From: a bacterium
GTDB lineage: Bacteria > Patescibacteriota > Microgenomatia > Woykebacterales > RBG-16-39-9b
Direction: 5' to 3'
Assembly (NCBI GenBank): GCA_030704665.1
Contig: JAUYID010000009.1
Location: 256,832-320,831, forward strand
DNA: 64,000 nt
Part shown: piece after piece, positions 7,974-31,576 of the stretch
Layout: each line of letters starts with the position of its first letter
Numbering within the stretch: position 1 is the stretch's first letter
Made by a program: the position numbers and the translations under genes
Notes under the pieces: generated by a model
What the model saw: only the letters and a program-made list of their open reading frames with translations
What the model was told of the DNA's origin: nothing
The model's database searches: none

Positions 7974-8603
7974 ATGAAGCGGAGGAAGGAACAGCTCATG
8001 AGAGGTCGAGTTATCTTCATCGGACTGGCCATGGTGGCCATCAGCGTTTTCGCCTTCGCCTGCGACGTCTACGGTGGATACGATGACGAGCAGACTCCGA
8101 CTCAGCAGGCAGCGATCGGCACGCTGGTTGCTCAGCAGACAGTGGCGCCGCTACCGACTCCGCGCCCGGTTGGCTACTGTGTGAAGGAGATCGCCAGTGG
8201 AGAGGTGGAACTTGGGGATCGGATGCGGATCACACCGGTCAAGGATTCGGATGGCAAGGATCAGGGTCTCAACCTGATCGCGAACTTTACGGTTCTGGGC
8301 ACCGACACGTTTCTCATCGCCAATGCCGCTCGGGGACCGCACTACCGGTTCCTGGTGAATCCGGCGTCAGTTGTGCCGGGGGATCAGTTGGTCAGCCCGA
8401 TAATCTTCGGTCCAGCCGTCGGTATGGTCGGACGTCTCATCGACGTTACCTGTGGGGAGGTCCCGATCTTGTACTTGGAGGTCTCGTTCTGGGATCTCTG
8501 TCACCAGGTTCCCGATGCGATTGTGGTCGAGGGTAAACCGCTCCTTGATGTGATCAAGACGGACTATCGTGTCGATCCCTGCAACATCGGCGGACCTGAG
8601 TAG
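7974..8603 (+). CDS. putative secreted lipoprotein, hypothetical (GC-rich islet)
   Basis: Internal Met of ORF 7848-8603. N-terminus MKRRKEQLMRGRVIFIGLAMVAISVFAFAC resembles a lipoprotein signal with lipobox Cys. Confidence 0.45.
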   Translation: MKRRKEQLMRGRVIFIGLAMVAISVFAFACDVYGGYDDEQTPTQQAAIGTLVAQQTVAPLPTPRPVGYCVKEIASGEVELGDRMRITPVKDSDGKDQGLNLIANFTVLGTDTFLIANAARGPHYRFLVNPASVVPGDQLVSPIIFGPAVGMVGRLIDVTCGEVPILYLEVSFWDLCHQVPDAIVVEGKPLLDVIKTDYRVDPCNIGGPE

Positions 8604-8615
8604 GGAGGGATATAC

Positions 8616-8816
8616 ATGGAATTCGGTACGAGAGTGGGAATCCTTTTCGTAGGGCTGCTGACCTTTGCCTTCCCTGGAGCGTTCGGGGTTTGGGGATTGG
8701 TGAGCTTTTACAGTGAAGGCTCAGAGCTCTTTTGGCCTCTCCTGGTGAGTTTCAGCCTCGGTGTGCCCGTTGCTGTTGTTCTCTTGGCTAGCGAGGCGCT
8801 GTTCTCGGAGAGCTAG
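8616..8816 (+). CDS. small hydrophobic membrane protein, hypothetical
   Basis: 66 aa, two predicted TM segments, GAGGGA RBS. GC-rich. Confidence 0.35.
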   Translation: MEFGTRVGILFVGLLTFAFPGAFGVWGLVSFYSEGSELFWPLLVSFSLGVPVAVVLLASEALFSES

Positions 8817-8935
8817 GACGAAGAAGAGAGAGTTTTTGTAGGAGAAAGCGCTTGCGCTTTGCTTTAATGCCAGATTCCGAAACTCGGAACTGCTCCTTTC
8901 CTTCAGAAAATCTTGCGTAAGGTTTGTTGAAGAGG

Positions 8936-8976
8936 AGAAACGACTTGGAAACGGGTCGTTTTTCTTTGGCATTTAG
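8936..8976 (+). terminator. intrinsic terminator (AAACGAC..GTCGTTT stem + T-run)
   Basis: GAGAAACGACTTGGAAACGGGTCGTTTTTCTTTGG. Near-identical module at 30174-30205. Confidence 0.6.
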
Positions 8977-9011
8977 CTAGGACAAATTGTACGATCGTGG
9001 AGTTTTGTTGG
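8970..9011 (+). repeat. copy 2 of 33-bp ACGATCGTG motif
   Basis: TTTAGCTAGGACAAATTGTACGATCGTGGAGTTTTGTTGG. Confidence 0.6.
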
Positions 9012-9061
9012 GTTTTAGTTTGAATTGGTGTTTATTATTACTCAAGTTTAACTCAACAAAA

Positions 9062-10408
9062 CTACCAAGTCAGAGTGAAATCGGGGTGTCCGGACTTGAA
9101 CTCTTTGAGAGCAATGGGTTTTTTCCCTTCAACTTGAACCGTCTGTTTTGGCAAGAGCTTAACCCTTAATTCTTCATTCTTAATTCTGTAAATTGTCCAG
9201 ACCCCAGGCCAAGGGTGGTAGGCACGAATCAAATTACTTAAATTCTTCGGGGGATTGCCGAAATCGACATAACCGTCTTCTTTTTTCAGTATTTTTGTGT
9301 AAGTTGCCTGTTCATGTTTCTGCGCCTTAGCTTTTATTTTCTTATTGACCCAAAGATGAATGACGTGATTAATTAAATTTGAACCAGTTACAGCCAGCTT
9401 TGCGCTCAGAGTTTCAAAAGTATCGTCTTTGTTGATCCGTTGCTTGGCCGAGATGATGACTGGGCCTTCGTCCATTTTCTCATTCATTTTCATGATCGAG
9501 ACACCAGTGTAAAGATCTCCGGCGGCAATGGCAGCTTGAATTGGGCTAGCACCTCGATATTTGGGCAAAACCGAGCCGTGGACGTTTAGAGAGCCACTGA
9601 CAGGGATATCCAGGATCTCTTTAGGAAGAATCTTACCGTAAGAAGCAACAACAATTACCTGGGGCTTGGCGGCTTTGATTTTAGCAACAATTTCCTCGTT
9701 AACTATTCGTTTACCCGAGCTGTCTTTTTTCACGAGCCAACTTGGTTTCTCGAGAGCGATATTAAACTGTTTAGCCAGTTCTTCCACCGGAGTGACTCTT
9801 TCTTCTTGCTTACGCCCGGCGAGCTTCGGTGGTGCGGTTACTACCAAGGGAATTTCGTACTCACCGACAGTTGATTGACCGATCAAAGATCTCAAAATTG
9901 TGGCTGCAAACTCTGGCGTGCCAAAGAAAACAAGCCGAACCGGCTCAAAGGCCAAGAGATTCTCTTTTTTATCGGCAATGTGATCAACGTAGAAGGTCGA
10001 GGAGAGGTGATCGTATTCGTGCTGAACTATTCTAGCGTAAAAACCACTTAAAGTAGCCAGCTTGGTTTTGCCACGAATGTCGGTGTATTCCAGTACAATC
10101 TCGGTTGCTCGATCGAGAATACCGCGGTAGCCGGGGATGGAAAGACAGCCCTCCTCACCCTCGTCAGTCTCTTTAACCCTTTTTATCATTTTTGGATTGA
10201 TGAAGGTCTCTTTCAGGGCACCGTAATCCACGATAAAGAGCCTGAGTTTTTCACCAATTTGAGGTGCAGCCAGCCCAACTCCGCCGGTGAAGGTCAGAGT
10301 TTCCTGCATATCAGCAACCATTTTTTTTACTTTCTCATCAATGACTGGAACAGGTTTGAAGGTGTATTTCCAGATTGGATCGGTTTTTTTGGTAAGGTTG
10401 AGTAACAT
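9062..10408 (-). CDS. def-fmt: fused peptide deformylase / methionyl-tRNA formyltransferase
   Basis: 448 aa single ORF. N-terminal Def motifs GVGLAAPQIG, EGCLSIPG, QHEYDHL. C-terminal Fmt motifs LVFFGTPEFAA and SLNVHGSVLPKYRGASPIQAAI. Confidence 0.75.
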   Translation of the reverse strand: MLLNLTKKTDPIWKYTFKPVPVIDEKVKKMVADMQETLTFTGGVGLAAPQIGEKLRLFIVDYGALKETFINPKMIKRVKETDEGEEGCLSIPGYRGILDRATEIVLEYTDIRGKTKLATLSGFYARIVQHEYDHLSSTFYVDHIADKKENLLAFEPVRLVFFGTPEFAATILRSLIGQSTVGEYEIPLVVTAPPKLAGRKQEERVTPVEELAKQFNIALEKPSWLVKKDSSGKRIVNEEIVAKIKAAKPQVIVVASYGKILPKEILDIPVSGSLNVHGSVLPKYRGASPIQAAIAAGDLYTGVSIMKMNEKMDEGPVIISAKQRINKDDTFETLSAKLAVTGSNLINHVIHLWVNKKIKAKAQKHEQATYTKILKKEDGYVDFGNPPKNLSNLIRAYHPWPGVWTIYRIKNEELRVKLLPKQTVQVEGKKPIALKEFKSGHPDFTLTW

Positions 10409-10498
10409 CGAAAATTATTATAGCTTGGGAGAGCAAATAGACTCAACAGTTTGCTTGTCTAAGATATAATCTGGGAAAGAAGTGAAGGAGGCTCGGAG

Positions 10499-10867
10499 AT
10501 GGGTATTGTAAAAAGTCTTGACCAGACCTCTGAGGGTCGGCAAGATCTCAAACGTGTTCTGGTCGACTCAGGTCTGATGGATGAATGCAAACGAATCCGT
10601 GACGAATATGCACATGCACGCGGCTACTTTGCTGAGATTCGCTTCCCACCCCGTGTGGCGGAGTTCACCCTTCGTCTCGACTGGTGGAATCCGGATAAGC
10701 CGTGTAAGTACTCAGTTAGAGTGTGGGCCAGGAGGAGAGTCAACGGTACTATCGAGATCAGAATCAACAACTGGAATCTCGACCCAGCATCTCTTCCGAG
10801 TCAGGAGGGGGTAAAGCGCCTGATTCAGAAAGCGATGGAAAACCCGCTCGTCGAGGAACTGAAGTAA
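10499..10867 (+). CDS. hypothetical protein (GC-rich islet)
   Basis: 122 aa. GAAGGAGG RBS. -10-like TATAAT upstream at ~10466. Confidence 0.45.
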   Translation: MGIVKSLDQTSEGRQDLKRVLVDSGLMDECKRIRDEYAHARGYFAEIRFPPRVAEFTLRLDWWNPDKPCKYSVRVWARRRVNGTIEIRINNWNLDPASLPSQEGVKRLIQKAMENPLVEELK

Positions 10868-10943
10868 CGCGTCTAACCCTGTCCAAAACAAGACCCGCAC
10901 TCGCCCCGCGGGTCTTCTCACTTTTAAACCTATAGCCCTTTGA

Positions 10944-10972
10944 CTTTTATACCTAAAAATGCTAAGATGCCG
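10944..10972 (+). promoter_or_regulatory. candidate promoter TTGACT-17-TAAGAT with ~110 nt structured leader
   Basis: TTGACTTTTATACCTAAAAATGCTAAGAT upstream of CDS 11089. Leader contains a GTTTTCGATTCATTCGAAAC hairpin. Confidence 0.3.
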
Positions 10973-11088
10973 CCTACTTTGGTGCTGGCAATCTGTTTTC
11001 GATTCATTCGAAACTAGTTTGCCATCACTATGGAACTCCGTCCATGGGATGTGTGTAGTGGCCGTGGGGCCGAAAGGAGTAGATCGAC

Positions 11089-11556
11089 ATGGCAGGTCTA
11101 AGAGTTTTCAGGGAAACGAGTCGGGCAATCCAGCTCTTCTTTGAGTTGGCTGGTATGCTCGGGCTTCCGGATGCAATTCGGAACATCTACACACCCTCAC
11201 CTAGCCAAGATGAGGGTAGATGGGTGCCTTCGATTCTGATTTTGAGCGGTTTTGCGGGAACGGACGAACCGCTCAGGAGTCGTTTTATCCTGGAATCTGC
11301 CAAAGACGAGCAGCTCCGTCTTGGCAAGGTTATTCTGGAAGGCGATCCTAGCGATGATTGGGGACCTCCAAGTTCCGGAGCAGCTTGGCGCAGGGATTTC
11401 CTAATTCTGAATCACGAGGATGGAAGGCTGGAATTTGTCGCCCCCGGGACAGTTATCGGCAAAGCTTTCAGTCAAATGTCGGCAACTGCCAAACTGGCGA
11501 TACGGCAGCGCTACTTCTACACTGGAGTAACGCCCTTCATCTTTCCCAAAGAATGA
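11089..11556 (+). CDS. hypothetical protein (GC-rich islet)
   Basis: 155 aa. AAAGGAG RBS. Confidence 0.45.
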   Translation: MAGLRVFRETSRAIQLFFELAGMLGLPDAIRNIYTPSPSQDEGRWVPSILILSGFAGTDEPLRSRFILESAKDEQLRLGKVILEGDPSDDWGPPSSGAAWRRDFLILNHEDGRLEFVAPGTVIGKAFSQMSATAKLAIRQRYFYTGVTPFIFPKE

Positions 11557-11603
11557 GTTGAAGAGCTCGGAGCAAGGATGAAACCGAGCAGAAGGAGAAT
11601 ATC

Positions 11604-11837
11604 ATGAGAGCTCTGACCGAAGCCGAGCAGAGGATCTTCGAGATGGTCAAGGATAACACCAGCATTCAGCAGGCGCTGTCCTATCCGGATCGGCTGGTGG
11701 CGATGCGGGAGGTTCGGGCCGTTCTACGTCGCCGGCCAGATGTTCACGATTTGCCCGACGATGGTATCACCGAGGCGCCTGAGTACGCTCTGGCGAATCA
11801 CCTCGTTGACTACCGTGAGCAGGTCAAGACAAGCTGA
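11604..11837 (+). CDS. hypothetical small protein
   Basis: 77 aa. GAAGGAG RBS. GC-rich. Confidence 0.4.
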   Translation: MRALTEAEQRIFEMVKDNTSIQQALSYPDRLVAMREVRAVLRRRPDVHDLPDDGITEAPEYALANHLVDYREQVKTS

Positions 11838-11929
11838 GGGAAAAAAACGAGAGATTCGGGGTGGCGGTGCGAGGTTCTATCCCTTTACCGCCACCTAAGA
11901 TCTTCTCCCATTCATTAATTAAACTAACC

Positions 11930-11969
11930 TTTAGCTAGTACAAAATTTCCGATCGTGAAAAACTGTTGC
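11930..11969 (+). repeat. copy 3 of 33-bp ACGATCGTG motif
   Basis: TTTAGCTAGTACAAAATTTCCGATCGTGAAAAACTGTTGC. Confidence 0.55.
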
Positions 11970-12002
11970 ATTTTCCCGACCAATTACTTTATATTTTAGT
12001 CA

Positions 12003-12512
12003 ATGGCGATCATTGATGACATTCTTGTCCAGCTCATCGACTTTACTTACCACCCCTACAAAATGATGTATGGGGATCTGCGGAAAACCTACAAAGCTGA
12101 GTCAGTCCGGATTGCTCTCTCCCGAGCTCAGAAGAAAGGTTGGTTGGAGCGAAGCTGGAATGATGATGGTACTTACCTAAAATTAACTGACCTTGGTAAG
12201 GAAAGAATGCTTAAATACAAGCCAGTCAGCAAACTCTTGCCCTGGCAGATGGAGGAGGGAGAGGTCAGTTACTGCGTGGTCGTTTTCGATATTCCTGAAA
12301 AAAGCCGCTCGACCCGGGATCTACTGCGCAGAAAGCTAAAAGAAGCCGGCTTTGTCGGCTGGCAGAAAAGTGTTTGGGTGGGGAAAAATATAAATTTGGA
12401 GAAACTACGCGAGTTTTTGAAGGAAGTTGGGCTGGAAAACCATGTTTTGGCAATCGAAACTTCTGACCTTGGTGATGAAGCTTTGGTCAAAGAATTAAGC
12501 ACATTCAGGTAG
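12003..12512 (+). CDS. PaaX-like winged-helix regulator family protein (putative)
   Basis: 169 aa. N-terminal wHTH-like (KKGWLERS...YLKLTDLG) and C-terminal YCVVVFDIPEKSRSTRDLLRRKL...SVWV block resembling the PaaX C-terminal fold. Flanked on both sides by the 33-bp motif. Confidence 0.4.
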   Translation: MAIIDDILVQLIDFTYHPYKMMYGDLRKTYKAESVRIALSRAQKKGWLERSWNDDGTYLKLTDLGKERMLKYKPVSKLLPWQMEEGEVSYCVVVFDIPEKSRSTRDLLRRKLKEAGFVGWQKSVWVGKNINLEKLREFLKEVGLENHVLAIETSDLGDEALVKELSTFR

Positions 12513-30913: not shown

Positions 30914-31576
30914 ATGTCAGCTAAGTTCATTGTTTTCGAGGGCTCGGACGGAACTGGAAAAACTACCCAAGCAAAACTTTTAAGAGACTTTTTGGCCAAA
31001 AAGGGTATCGACTCGGTTATTATCGATTTTCCTCGCTATTGGAGCAGTTTTCATGGACGTATTATCCGCCGCTACTTGCACGGTGAACTTGGTAAGCTTG
31101 ATCATGTTAATCCTTATCTGATTTCCTTTGCTTATTCTCTCGATCGGGCCACCGCCAAAGAAGAAATCCAAGGCTGGCTTAACGAAGGAAAATTTGTTAT
31201 CGCTGATCGTTACGCTCCTTCCAACATGGCTTATCAGGCGGCGAAGCTGCCACCCTCCAAACGTAATCAGTTCATTAAATGGGATTACGATTTGGAATAC
31301 AAAGAGAATAAAATTGTCCCGGAAGATTTTGTCCTCTATCTTTACCTTCCAATTGATATCACTACCAAACTCTTGAAAAAAAGAAACCGTAAACTAGACA
31401 TTCATGAAGTTAATGTTGATCTTTTGAGAGAGAGTCAAAAAATGTATTTAAAGCTTTCAAAAAGATTCAAACACTGGGTTGTTATCAACTGTGTCGATGA
31501 GCAAGGAAACCTCAAAAGCAGGGAAGAGATTCACGAGAAAATAGTTGCAACTCTGAAAAAGTTAAATATAATTTAA
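30914..31576 (+). CDS. tmk: thymidylate kinase
   Basis: 220 aa. P-loop FIVFEGSDGTGKTTQ and DRY motif. Confidence 0.85.
   Translation: MSAKFIVFEGSDGTGKTTQAKLLRDFLAKKGIDSVIIDFPRYWSSFHGRIIRRYLHGELGKLDHVNPYLISFAYSLDRATAKEEIQGWLNEGKFVIADRYAPSNMAYQAAKLPPSKRNQFIKWDYDLEYKENKIVPEDFVLYLYLPIDITTKLLKKRNRKLDIHEVNVDLLRESQKMYLKLSKRFKHWVVINCVDEQGNLKSREEIHEKIVATLKKLNII

What the first reader, a model, noticed from the sequence alone, without database searches (positions are those of the whole stretch)
9062..10408. Peptide deformylase and methionyl-tRNA formyltransferase fused into one 448-aa ORF
All three Def motifs (GVGLAAPQIG, EGCLSIPG, QHEYDHL) are followed in frame by the Fmt N-terminal fold (LVFFGTPEFAA) and the SLNVHGSVLPKYRGASPIQ catalytic loop. 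There is no intervening stop.

def and fmt are normally adjacent but separate genes. A covalent fusion couples removal and addition of the formyl group in one polypeptide, which is functionally curious.
Basis: partly seen in the sequence, partly recalled or inferred. Interest (0 to 1): 0.5.

Follow-up and report, generated by a model that had tools for sequence, protein, structure and literature searches.

The report
Fused deformylase–formyltransferase gene, real but known
This gene really does encode, as one protein, the enzyme that puts the formyl group on the initiator Met-tRNA and the enzyme that later removes it from new proteins, but the same fusion is already known, has been shown to work in Exiguobacterium, and recurs in many uncultured small-genome bacteria, so this is one more lineage with a known oddity.

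Summary
Window 9062-10408 (minus strand) is one uninterrupted 448-aa ORF. It carries a complete peptide deformylase (Def, aa 4-149), a 21-residue junction, and a methionyl-tRNA formyltransferase (Fmt, aa 158-448). Both halves score above the curated family cut-offs and keep every catalytic motif.

It is not an assembly artefact. More than 100 independent assemblies, mostly labelled Candidatus Woykebacteria or Patescibacteria, carry the same fused ORF at 35-70% identity. Within the window's own clade the junction length is fixed at 30-31 residues, and the catalytic residues of both halves are invariant or nearly so. AlphaFold2 gives a confident single-chain model (pLDDT 95.6, pTM 0.90).

Unfused relatives have def and fmt overlapping (ATGA) or a few bases apart, so a small indel is enough to fuse them.

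The kind is already known. A 2025 paper (PMC12690207) reported a def-fmt fusion in Exiguobacterium and showed that it complements an E. coli def-fmt deletion. UniRef already labels such proteins "Multifunctional fusion protein". Of the 150 best-scoring divergent cluster representatives, 49 are fused, always Def first, with differing junctions.

Verdict: a genuine, conserved and probably bifunctional enzyme, from what looks like an independent fusion event. Interest is low to moderate.

The parts
9062..10408 (-). Whole fused def-fmt ORF (448 aa plus TAG stop at 9062-9064)
   Evidence: ORF list. Pfam and NCBIfam architecture. Identical protein P0001 is in NCBI, named only 'methionyl-tRNA formyltransferase'.
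9962..10399 (-). Peptide deformylase domain (aa 4-149)
   Evidence: PF01327 E 3.7e-41. TIGR00079 is above its cut-off. The model superposes on T. maritima PDF 1lme with target TM 0.95 and rmsd 1.2 A.
10253..10282 (-). Def motif 1, GVGLAAPQIG (aa 43-52; Gln50)
   Evidence: Read from the translation. G45 and Q50 are invariant, and G43, A47 and A48 are at least 90% conserved, in 63 fused homologs.
10130..10153 (-). Def motif 2, EGCLSIPG (aa 86-93; metal ligand Cys88)
   Evidence: Translation. E86, C88 and S90 are invariant.
10004..10024 (-). Def motif 3, QHEYDHL (aa 129-135; metal ligands His130 and His134, catalytic Glu131)
   Evidence: Translation. Q129, H130, E131, D133 and H134 are invariant.
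9941..10003 (-). Junction (aa 136-156, SSTFYVDHIADKKENLLAFEP) in place of the usual Def C-terminal tail and the Fmt N-terminus
   Evidence: Codon listing. HExxH-to-GTP spacing is fixed at 30-31 residues across the window's clade. The model is well ordered here, with pLDDT about 95. The internal TTG at L152 is not conserved; relatives have Tyr there.
9362..9937 (-). Fmt N-terminal (Rossmann-type formyltransferase) domain, aa 158-349
   Evidence: PF00551 E 1.8e-40. It aligns to E. coli Fmt 1fmt/2fmt residues 2-238, including the loop with the Arg42 equivalent (KLAGRKQ against RPAGRGK).
9536..9592 (-). Fmt catalytic and folate-binding loop SLNVHGSVLPKYRGASPIQ (aa 273-291). Asn275 and His277 match E. 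coli Asn108 and His110.
   Evidence: Residue-level alignment to 1fmt. H277, S279, L281, P282 and P289 are invariant; N275, R285 and G286 are at least 90% conserved.
9470..9472 (-). Codon of Asp313, the equivalent of E. coli Fmt Asp146
   Evidence: Alignment to 1fmt. D313 is invariant in 63 homologs.
9065..9289 (-). Shortened Fmt C-terminal (tRNA-binding) domain, aa 374-448
   Evidence: PF02911 matches profile positions 2-44 of 100 only. The BLASTP alignment to P0150 shows about 35 residues missing, while the terminal VQ.EGKK....F..G motif is kept. Unfused relatives P0151 and P0146 have the same short form. pLDDT is 93-97.
10417..10446 (-). Promoter-like site, TTGAGT-18 nt-TATAAT. The -10 hexamer ends 8 nt before the ATG and there is no Shine-Dalgarno, so the mRNA may be leaderless.
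   Evidence: Consensus scan, 10 of 12 positions matched. A similar -10-like hexamer lies 6-9 nt before the ATG in L001, L081 and L082. The same pattern is seen at 11 of 52 window ORFs, so it is not specific to this gene.

Best explanation
The ORF is a genuine, conserved, bifunctional Def-Fmt enzyme of a Patescibacteria (Woykebacteria-type) bacterium.

Origin (inferred). The ancestral state was a translationally coupled def-fmt pair whose stop and start codons overlapped or nearly touched. A small indel or stop-codon loss put fmt in frame with def. It removed the last ten or so residues of the Def tail and the first few residues of Fmt, leaving a short junction of fixed length.

Function (inferred from sequence and from the Exiguobacterium experiment). 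The C-terminal Fmt part formylates Met-tRNAfMet using 10-formyl-tetrahydrofolate (Asn275, His277, Asp313). The N-terminal metalloenzyme part removes the formyl group from nascent chains (Cys88, His130, His134, Glu131, Gln50). The two reactions act on different substrates at different times, so the fusion does not channel a substrate.

What the fusion does achieve (inferred). It enforces 1:1 co-expression and co-inheritance. Because Def is N-terminal, any truncating mutation in def also removes Fmt. That avoids the toxic state of formylation without deformylation; def is dispensable in E. coli only when fmt is also absent (Mazel et al. 1994, as cited in PMC12690207).
For: A single ORF contains both domains above curated cut-offs. 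All Def motif residues and the Fmt Asn/His/Asp triad are invariant or at least 90% conserved across 63 fused homologs spanning 36-70% identity, which indicates purifying selection on both active sites. Residue-level alignment to E. coli Fmt confirms N108/H110/D146 and the Arg42 loop.

The AF2 model has pLDDT 95.6 and pTM 0.90, with no disordered linker. Its halves superpose on solved Fmt (target TM about 0.8) and on solved PDF (target TM 0.95, rmsd 1.2 A).

The fusion is conserved in more than 100 assemblies, in GTDB representatives L001 and L002, and in syntenic L081. The junction length is fixed at 30-31 residues in the clade, and the clade is coherent in both the Def and the Fmt trees. There is no conserved internal start codon.

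Unfused relatives show ATGA overlaps, or gaps of 1-25 nt in most, between the def stop and the fmt start. The tails of unfused Microgenomates-type Defs (...KKKLYK...) resemble the junction (...DKKKLYTYKP...).

An Exiguobacterium def-fmt fusion with the same domain order restores growth of an E. coli def-fmt deletion (PMC12690207). That protein (P0142) is 37% identical to this one.
Against: No enzymatic or genetic test exists for this protein or for any Patescibacteria member.

The Fmt C-terminal tRNA-binding domain is about 30-35 residues shorter than in characterised Fmts.

The Def part lacks the long C-terminal helix that anchors E. coli PDF to the ribosome (own knowledge: Bingel-Erlenmeyer et al. 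2008). How the fused Def reaches nascent chains is therefore unknown.

Whether the genome also has a separate def or fmt could be checked only in this 64-kb window, which has none. The selective-advantage part of the explanation is inference only; the fusion could be a neutral by-product of genome compaction.
Confidence: 0.88

Rival explanations
1. Assembly or sequencing artefact. A missed base or stop at the def/fmt boundary makes two ordinary overlapping genes look like one ORF.
For: In unfused relatives the two genes overlap or lie 1-25 nt apart in most, so a single-base error could create an apparent fusion. Reads could not be inspected.
Against: The same in-frame fusion, with the same junction length of 30-31 residues, occurs in more than 100 independent assemblies from different projects, at 41-70% identity within the clade. 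It also occurs in L001, L002 and L081. The junction is conserved at the protein level and is modelled with pLDDT about 95.
Confidence: 0.01
2. A fused ORF in which only one half is catalytically active. The other half would be retained as a docking or regulatory module, for example an inactive Def-like domain as in type 3 PDFs, with a separate def or fmt elsewhere in the genome doing the real work.
For: Exiguobacterium, the published case, does keep a second PDF. The genome outside the 64-kb window could not be searched. The Fmt C-domain is shortened.
Against: Every catalytic and metal-binding residue of both halves is invariant or nearly so across the fused clade. Both halves exceed the equivalog cut-offs. 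The short C-domain is shared with stand-alone Fmts of related lineages, which are presumably functional. No second def or fmt is present in the window.
Confidence: 0.06
3. One ORF but two proteins. Internal translation initiation near the junction (TTG at Leu152, preceded by AAGAGA), or proteolytic cleavage, would release free Fmt and free Def.
For: The window has an in-frame TTG at codon 152 with a purine-rich stretch upstream, at about the position where an ancestral fmt start would lie.
Against: That codon is Tyr in most relatives, and L001 and L002 have no start codon there. The junction is short, of conserved length, and predicted to be structured rather than a flexible cleavable linker.
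Confidence: 0.04

Closest known systems
Exiguobacterium def-fmt fusion (e.g. WP_021067074.1 = P0142, 461 aa), described and complementation-tested in PMC12690207 (Mol Biol Evol 2025)
   Same: It has the same domain order (Def at the N-terminus, Fmt at the C-terminus) in a single ORF, with intact motifs in both halves. It is 37% identical to the window protein over 414 residues and has the same Pfam architecture. NCBI names it only 'methionyl-tRNA formyltransferase'.
   Different: It comes from a different phylum (Bacillota against Patescibacteria). Its junction is about 6 residues shorter and is not alignable in sequence. It has a full-length Formyl_trans_C domain (profile 1-99 of 100) against 2-44 of 100 here. 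Many unfused lineages lie between the two, so the fusions are most likely independent events. Exiguobacterium keeps a second PDF; whether this genome does is unknown.
Canonical separate def-fmt operon (E. coli Def, PDB 1bs5 etc.; E. coli Fmt, PDB 1fmt/2fmt)
   Same: The gene order is the same, as are the catalytic residues (Def Cys/His/His/Glu/Gln; Fmt Asn108/His110/Asp146 and the Arg42 loop) and the folds.
   Different: There is no stop codon between the two. The Def C-terminal helix is replaced by Fmt. The Fmt C-domain is shortened by about 30-35 residues.
Other fused Def-Fmt proteins in databases, e.g. Candidatus Nealsonbacteria A0A2G9YSK9 (UniRef 'Multifunctional fusion protein', P0168) and Candidatus Fermentithermobacillaceae MBP8613512.1 (P0150 cluster)
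   Same: They have the same architecture and the same order. Of the 150 best representatives from 1.84 billion 50%-identity clusters, 49 carry both halves, and all have Def first.
   Different: They are 32-42% identical to the window protein. By a simple motif-distance measure their junctions range from 15 to 91 residues, against 30-31 in the window's clade. In coarse neighbour-joining trees they are interleaved with unfused lineages.

Membership tests
Peptide deformylase (PF01327 / TIGR00079) | Profile score above the curated cut-off | tested here: met
   PF01327 scores 140.7 bits against a cut-off of 22.8. TIGR00079 scores 121.3 against 103.95, and NF001159 scores 134.3 against 125.
Peptide deformylase (PF01327 / TIGR00079) | Three catalytic motifs: G-phi-G-phi-AAxQ, EGCxS and QHExDH (metal ligands Cys, His, His; catalytic Glu) | tested here: met
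   GVGLAAPQ, EGCLS and QHEYDH are all present. Their key residues are invariant in 63 homologs.
Peptide deformylase (PF01327 / TIGR00079) | PDF fold | tested here: met
   Foldseek to 1lme (T. maritima PDF) gives target TM 0.95 and rmsd 1.2 A over 146 columns. This uses a predicted model with pLDDT 95.6.
Peptide deformylase (PF01327 / TIGR00079) | Deformylase activity on N-formyl-Met peptides | not testable with these tools
   This needs an enzyme assay or complementation. It has been shown only for the Exiguobacterium fusion (PMC12690207).
Methionyl-tRNA formyltransferase (TIGR00460 equivalog) | Equivalog profile score above the curated cut-off | tested here: met
   The score is 220.7 bits against 201.5, but only profile positions 2-243 of 315 are matched.
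Methionyl-tRNA formyltransferase (TIGR00460 equivalog) | Catalytic Asn108/His110/Asp146 (E. coli numbering) and the HxSLLPxxRG folate loop | tested here: met
   Asn275, His277 and Asp313 align to E. coli Asn108, His110 and Asp146. They are invariant or at least 90% conserved.
Methionyl-tRNA formyltransferase (TIGR00460 equivalog) | Insertion loop in the Rossmann fold carrying the Arg42 equivalent, which recognises the initiator tRNA acceptor end | tested here: met
   TAPPKLAGRKQEERVTPV aligns to E. coli TQPDRPAGRGKKLMPSPV with the Arg conserved. The role of Arg42 is from my own knowledge of the Fmt literature.
Methionyl-tRNA formyltransferase (TIGR00460 equivalog) | Complete C-terminal beta-barrel tRNA-binding domain (PF02911, about 100 residues) | tested here: inconclusive
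   Only profile positions 2-44 of 100 match, and about 35 residues are missing relative to P0150. However, the terminal VQ.EGKK motif is kept, the domain is modelled confidently, and the same short form occurs in stand-alone Fmts of relatives.
Def-Fmt 'multifunctional fusion protein' (as in Exiguobacterium, PMC12690207) | Single ORF with Def at the N-terminus and Fmt at the C-terminus and no intervening stop | tested here: met
   The same is true in L001, L002 and L081.
Def-Fmt 'multifunctional fusion protein' (as in Exiguobacterium, PMC12690207) | Common descent of the fusion event (shared junction) with the Exiguobacterium protein | tested here: not met
   The junction differs in length and sequence. 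Unfused lineages lie between the two. This is the same kind of fusion, but probably an independent event.
Def-Fmt 'multifunctional fusion protein' (as in Exiguobacterium, PMC12690207) | Both activities supplied in vivo by the single polypeptide | not testable with these tools
   This needs complementation of an E. coli def-fmt deletion, as was done for E. alkaliphilum (Fig. S1 legend).

The most novel reading that the evidence does not exclude
Def-Fmt fusion has arisen repeatedly in Patescibacteria and Bacillota, and in each case Fmt takes the place of the C-terminal segment that anchors stand-alone Def to the ribosome in E. coli. The fusion might therefore do more than co-express the two enzymes. 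It could recruit Fmt to the ribosome, or recruit Def to initiator tRNA or initiation complexes. That would physically couple the formylation cycle to translating ribosomes in cells with minimal translation machinery. The high pTM of 0.90 suggests a fixed inter-domain geometry that selection maintains.
Probability: 0.08. Interest if true: 0.5.

Novelty: new member of a known kind. Interest (0 to 1): 0.22.

Why it matters
The practical value is modest.

1. Annotation. NCBI names these proteins only 'methionyl-tRNA formyltransferase', and in at least one genome the Def half was dropped from the gene call (L081). Name-based surveys would therefore score these bacteria as lacking the essential def gene.

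2. Evolution. The data suggest that def-fmt fusion is a recurrent event (49 of the 150 best divergent cluster representatives, always Def first, with varied junctions), not a one-genus curiosity. This fits the genetic rule that Fmt without Def is harmful.

3. Biochemistry. A naturally fused Def without the usual C-terminal tail is a ready-made test of how much ribosome anchoring by that tail matters.

None of this changes current understanding of the formylation cycle.

Tried and rejected
1. GTDB scan. Many loci matched both halves by tblastn, but ORF analysis showed that only L001 and L002 are true fusions. The rest are adjacent separate genes, including triple-def arrays in Sulfitobacter and Roseobacter.

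2. P0100, a 313-aa 'Fmt-only' protein from Woykebacteria RBG_16_43_9, looked like an unfused member of the clade. Its locus L081 in fact has def and fmt continuous in one frame, so this was an annotation artefact.

3. The internal TTG at codon 152 as a restart for free Fmt was rejected. The codon is not conserved.

4. A leaderless-type promoter as a special regulatory feature of this gene was rejected. The -10-like hexamer lies 6-9 nt before the ATG in 4 of 5 fused loci, but the same pattern occurs at 11 of 52 ORFs in the window, so it is a genome-wide habit.

5. The short Fmt C-domain as a consequence of fusion was rejected. Stand-alone Fmts of relatives have the same short form.

7. The look-up of encoding contigs returned nothing for the exact protein, so the rest of the 938-kb contig could not be examined.

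8. The paper's supplements do not hold the Exiguobacterium sequence. It was recovered instead through the cluster look-up.

9. Literature searches for a Patescibacteria or CPR-specific report of the fusion found none.

10. Rfam found only the four tRNAs in the window.

Full report
**1. The observation**

The ORF lister returns one ORF at 9062..10408 on the minus strand, with an ATG start, 448 aa and no internal stop. The raw sequence agrees.

Pfam places Pep_deformylase at residues 4-149 (E 3.7e-41), Formyl_trans_N at 158-349 (E 1.8e-40), and a partial Formyl_trans_C at 374-420 (E 2e-8, profile positions 2-44 of 100). The NCBIfam equivalog models for both enzymes are passed: TIGR00460 fmt scores 220.7 bits against a cut-off of 201.5, and TIGR00079 def scores 121.3 against 103.95.

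**2. Is it an artefact?**

No. The word-indexed protein search found the identical protein in NCBI (P0001, on a 938-kb contig, named only 'MAG: methionyl-tRNA formyltransferase [bacterium]'). It also found more than 100 further proteins of 427-489 aa with the same three-domain architecture at 34-70% identity. They come from NCBI, JGI, ENA and Logan assemblies, and the named ones are mostly Candidatus Woykebacteria or other Patescibacteria.

Two GTDB species representatives (L001, L002; 56% identity) carry a single stop-free ORF spanning both halves. One apparent exception was a 313-aa 'Fmt-only' protein of Woykebacteria RBG_16_43_9 (P0100). Its locus L081 is syntenic with the window (Wzy_C ... 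def-fmt ... L28 ... M50 peptidase). There, def and fmt are continuous in one frame, and the annotation had simply started the gene too late.

In 63 aligned fused proteins, the spacing from the Def HExxH motif to the Fmt G(T/S)P motif is fixed at 30-31 residues throughout the window's clade. A sequencing error cannot be conserved like this.

**3. Are both halves intact?**

*Def.* Motif 1 (GVGLAAPQ), motif 2 (EGCLS) and motif 3 (QHEYDH) are present. G45, Q50, E86, C88, S90, Q129, H130, E131, D133 and H134 are invariant across the 63 sequences.

*Fmt.* The residue-level alignment to E. coli Fmt (1fmt/2fmt) puts Asn275, His277 and Asp313 opposite the catalytic Asn108, His110 and Asp146. It also puts the Arg of KLAGRKQ opposite Arg42 of the tRNA-recognition loop. 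H277 and D313 are invariant, and N275, R285 and G286 are at least 90% conserved.

*Structure.* AlphaFold2 with the 63-sequence alignment gives pLDDT 95.6 and pTM 0.90, with no disordered linker. Foldseek against the PDB finds Fmt chains (target TM about 0.8) and PDF chains (1lme, target TM 0.95, rmsd 1.2 A). No solved chain covers both halves.

**4. Two departures from the textbook enzymes**

First, the Def part ends about 15 residues after HExxH. It lacks the long C-terminal helix that anchors E. coli PDF to the ribosome (own knowledge); Fmt follows instead.

Second, the Fmt C-terminal domain is about 30-35 residues shorter than usual. It keeps the terminal VQ.EGKK....F..G motif. This short C-domain is not a product of the fusion, because stand-alone Fmts of related lineages (P0151, 272 aa; P0146, 283 aa) show the same partial Pfam match.

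**5. How it arose**

Other Patescibacteria in the GTDB scan have separate def and fmt in the same order. These include Moraniibacteriota, Parcubacteria, Paceibacterota, Microgenomatus, Kerfeldbacteria and Pacebacteria. Their def stop and fmt start overlap (ATGA in L012, and likewise in L021 and L029) or lie 1-25 nt apart in most. That is the classic translationally coupled arrangement, which a one-base indel can fuse.

The tails of stand-alone Microgenomates-type Defs (...LLEQKKKLYKLNAKDEWEEVEI) resemble the clade's junction (...DKKKLYTYKPIKIVFFG). This suggests that the fusion trimmed the last ten or so Def residues and the first few Fmt residues. The in-frame TTG at codon 152 of the window is not conserved (Tyr in relatives), so there is no conserved internal restart.

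**6. How widespread, and how many times?**

An exhaustive phmmer search of 1.84 billion 50%-identity representatives returned 150 best hits. Of these, 49 contain both halves, and in all 49 Def comes first. By a simple motif-distance measure their junctions range from 15 to 91 residues.

Source names for a sample include Patescibacteria group, Candidatus Nealsonbacteria (UniRef: 'Multifunctional fusion protein'), Candidatus Fermentithermobacillaceae (Firmicutes) and Exiguobacterium. In coarse neighbour-joining trees of each half, the window's clade is coherent, while the distant fused proteins are interleaved with unfused lineages. Together with the differing junctions, this suggests several independent fusions. 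These trees are not robust enough to count events.

**7. What is already known**

PMC12690207 (Mol Biol Evol 2025) reports that def and fmt are fused in the four Exiguobacterium reference genomes. A synthesised E. alkaliphilum fusion restores normal growth to an E. coli def-fmt deletion, and these genomes also carry a second PDF.

The Exiguobacterium protein (P0142 = WP_021067074.1) is 37% identical to the window protein. Its junction is about 6 residues shorter, and it has a full-length C-domain. Three literature searches found no report of the fusion in Patescibacteria or CPR bacteria. The kind is therefore known and tested. The Woykebacteria-type clade is an undescribed, probably independent instance.

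**8. Mechanism**

*Shown.* There is one ORF. Both catalytic centres are under purifying selection. The junction is fixed in length and structured.

*Inferred.* The protein performs both reactions. Fmt acts on Met-tRNAfMet before initiation and Def acts on nascent chains, so the fusion cannot channel a substrate. What it provides is obligatory 1:1 co-expression and co-inheritance. With Def first, any truncating mutation in def also removes Fmt. That avoids formylation without deformylation, which is the lethal combination in E. coli (Mazel et al. 1994, as cited in PMC12690207). A neutral origin through genome compaction cannot be excluded.

**9. Context**

The gene stands alone on the minus strand, between small plus-strand ORFs that have no Pfam match. 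It lies in an ordinary housekeeping neighbourhood: L28, an M50 peptidase, a Wzy_C/TPR protein, MreB-MreC-PBP2, DprA and TopA. No second def or fmt is present in the 64-kb window. The rest of the genome could not be reached.

**10. Verdict**

It is a new, lineage-level member of a known and experimentally validated kind of fusion. Interest is low to moderate (0.22).

Noticed in passing
window 10417-10446 (-), and starts of ORFs at 30914, 35142, 46287, 53649, 59779, 63944(-), 12003, 6680(-) and others: A -10-like TAnnnT hexamer ends 6-9 nt before the start codon, with no Shine-Dalgarno, at 11 of 52 long ORFs in the window, the def-fmt gene included. Another 15 of the 52 have an SD-like motif. 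This suggests that many first-in-operon genes of this genome are transcribed as leaderless mRNAs.
   Followed up: partly
L081 3536-4942 (NCBI MHCS01000033.1, Woykebacteria RBG_16_43_9): The deposited gene call (313 aa, 'methionyl-tRNA formyltransferase') starts inside the fused ORF and leaves the whole Def half unannotated. More generally, NCBI names the fused proteins only as Fmt, so name-based surveys would miss def in these genomes.
   Followed up: yes
window 9065-9289 (-); also P0151 and P0146: The Fmt C-terminal tRNA-binding domain is about 30-35 residues shorter than in characterised Fmts (Pfam profile 2-44 of 100 only). This holds both in the fused clade and in stand-alone Fmts of related Patescibacteria. 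It looks like a lineage-wide minimal C-domain, and its effect on tRNA binding is unknown.
   Followed up: partly
window 12003-12512 (+); L082 7698-8231; L083 5151-5684: A small protein with a PaaX_M / Cas2-like domain lies 1.6 kb from the fused gene in the window. A similar one lies 2.3 kb from the fused gene in a distant fused lineage (P0109 loci). This may be coincidence if such proteins are common in these genomes.
   Followed up: no
L024, L025, L028, L030, L031, L056 (Sulfitobacter / Roseobacter): Three tandem def paralogs lie directly upstream of fmt. This matches the clustering of three PDF genes in Rhodobacterales noted in PMC12690207.
   Followed up: no
L009 5236-6576 (Planctomycetota MAG): The stop-to-stop ORF holding the Def domain is 447 aa long, with Def at residues 269-403. 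This leaves a possible N-terminal extension of about 260 residues, of unknown nature, upstream of a separate fmt. The true start codon was not determined.
   Followed up: no
window 7237-8816 and 10499-11556 (+): Five small or medium ORFs flank the fused gene: 7237-7656, 7848-8603, 8616-8816, 10499-10867 and 11089-11556. The four that were scanned (all except 8616-8816) have no Pfam match. The interval 8001-12000 has the highest GC of the window (0.494, against 0.43-0.49 elsewhere).
   Followed up: no
window 3832-4617 (-): A cluster of four tRNA genes (Trp-CCA, Thr-TGT, Tyr-GTA, Thr-GGT) sits in a stretch with no ORF of 120 aa or more, between the asparaginase-like gene and the next ORFs. These are the only Rfam hits in the window.
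   Followed up: no
P0148 (MCK7474229.1): A 458-aa fused Def-Fmt protein is labelled 'peptide deformylase [Rhodopseudomonas palustris]' in a MAG. The taxonomic label looks doubtful (possible mis-binning), because cultured Alphaproteobacteria in the scan have separate genes.
   Followed up: no
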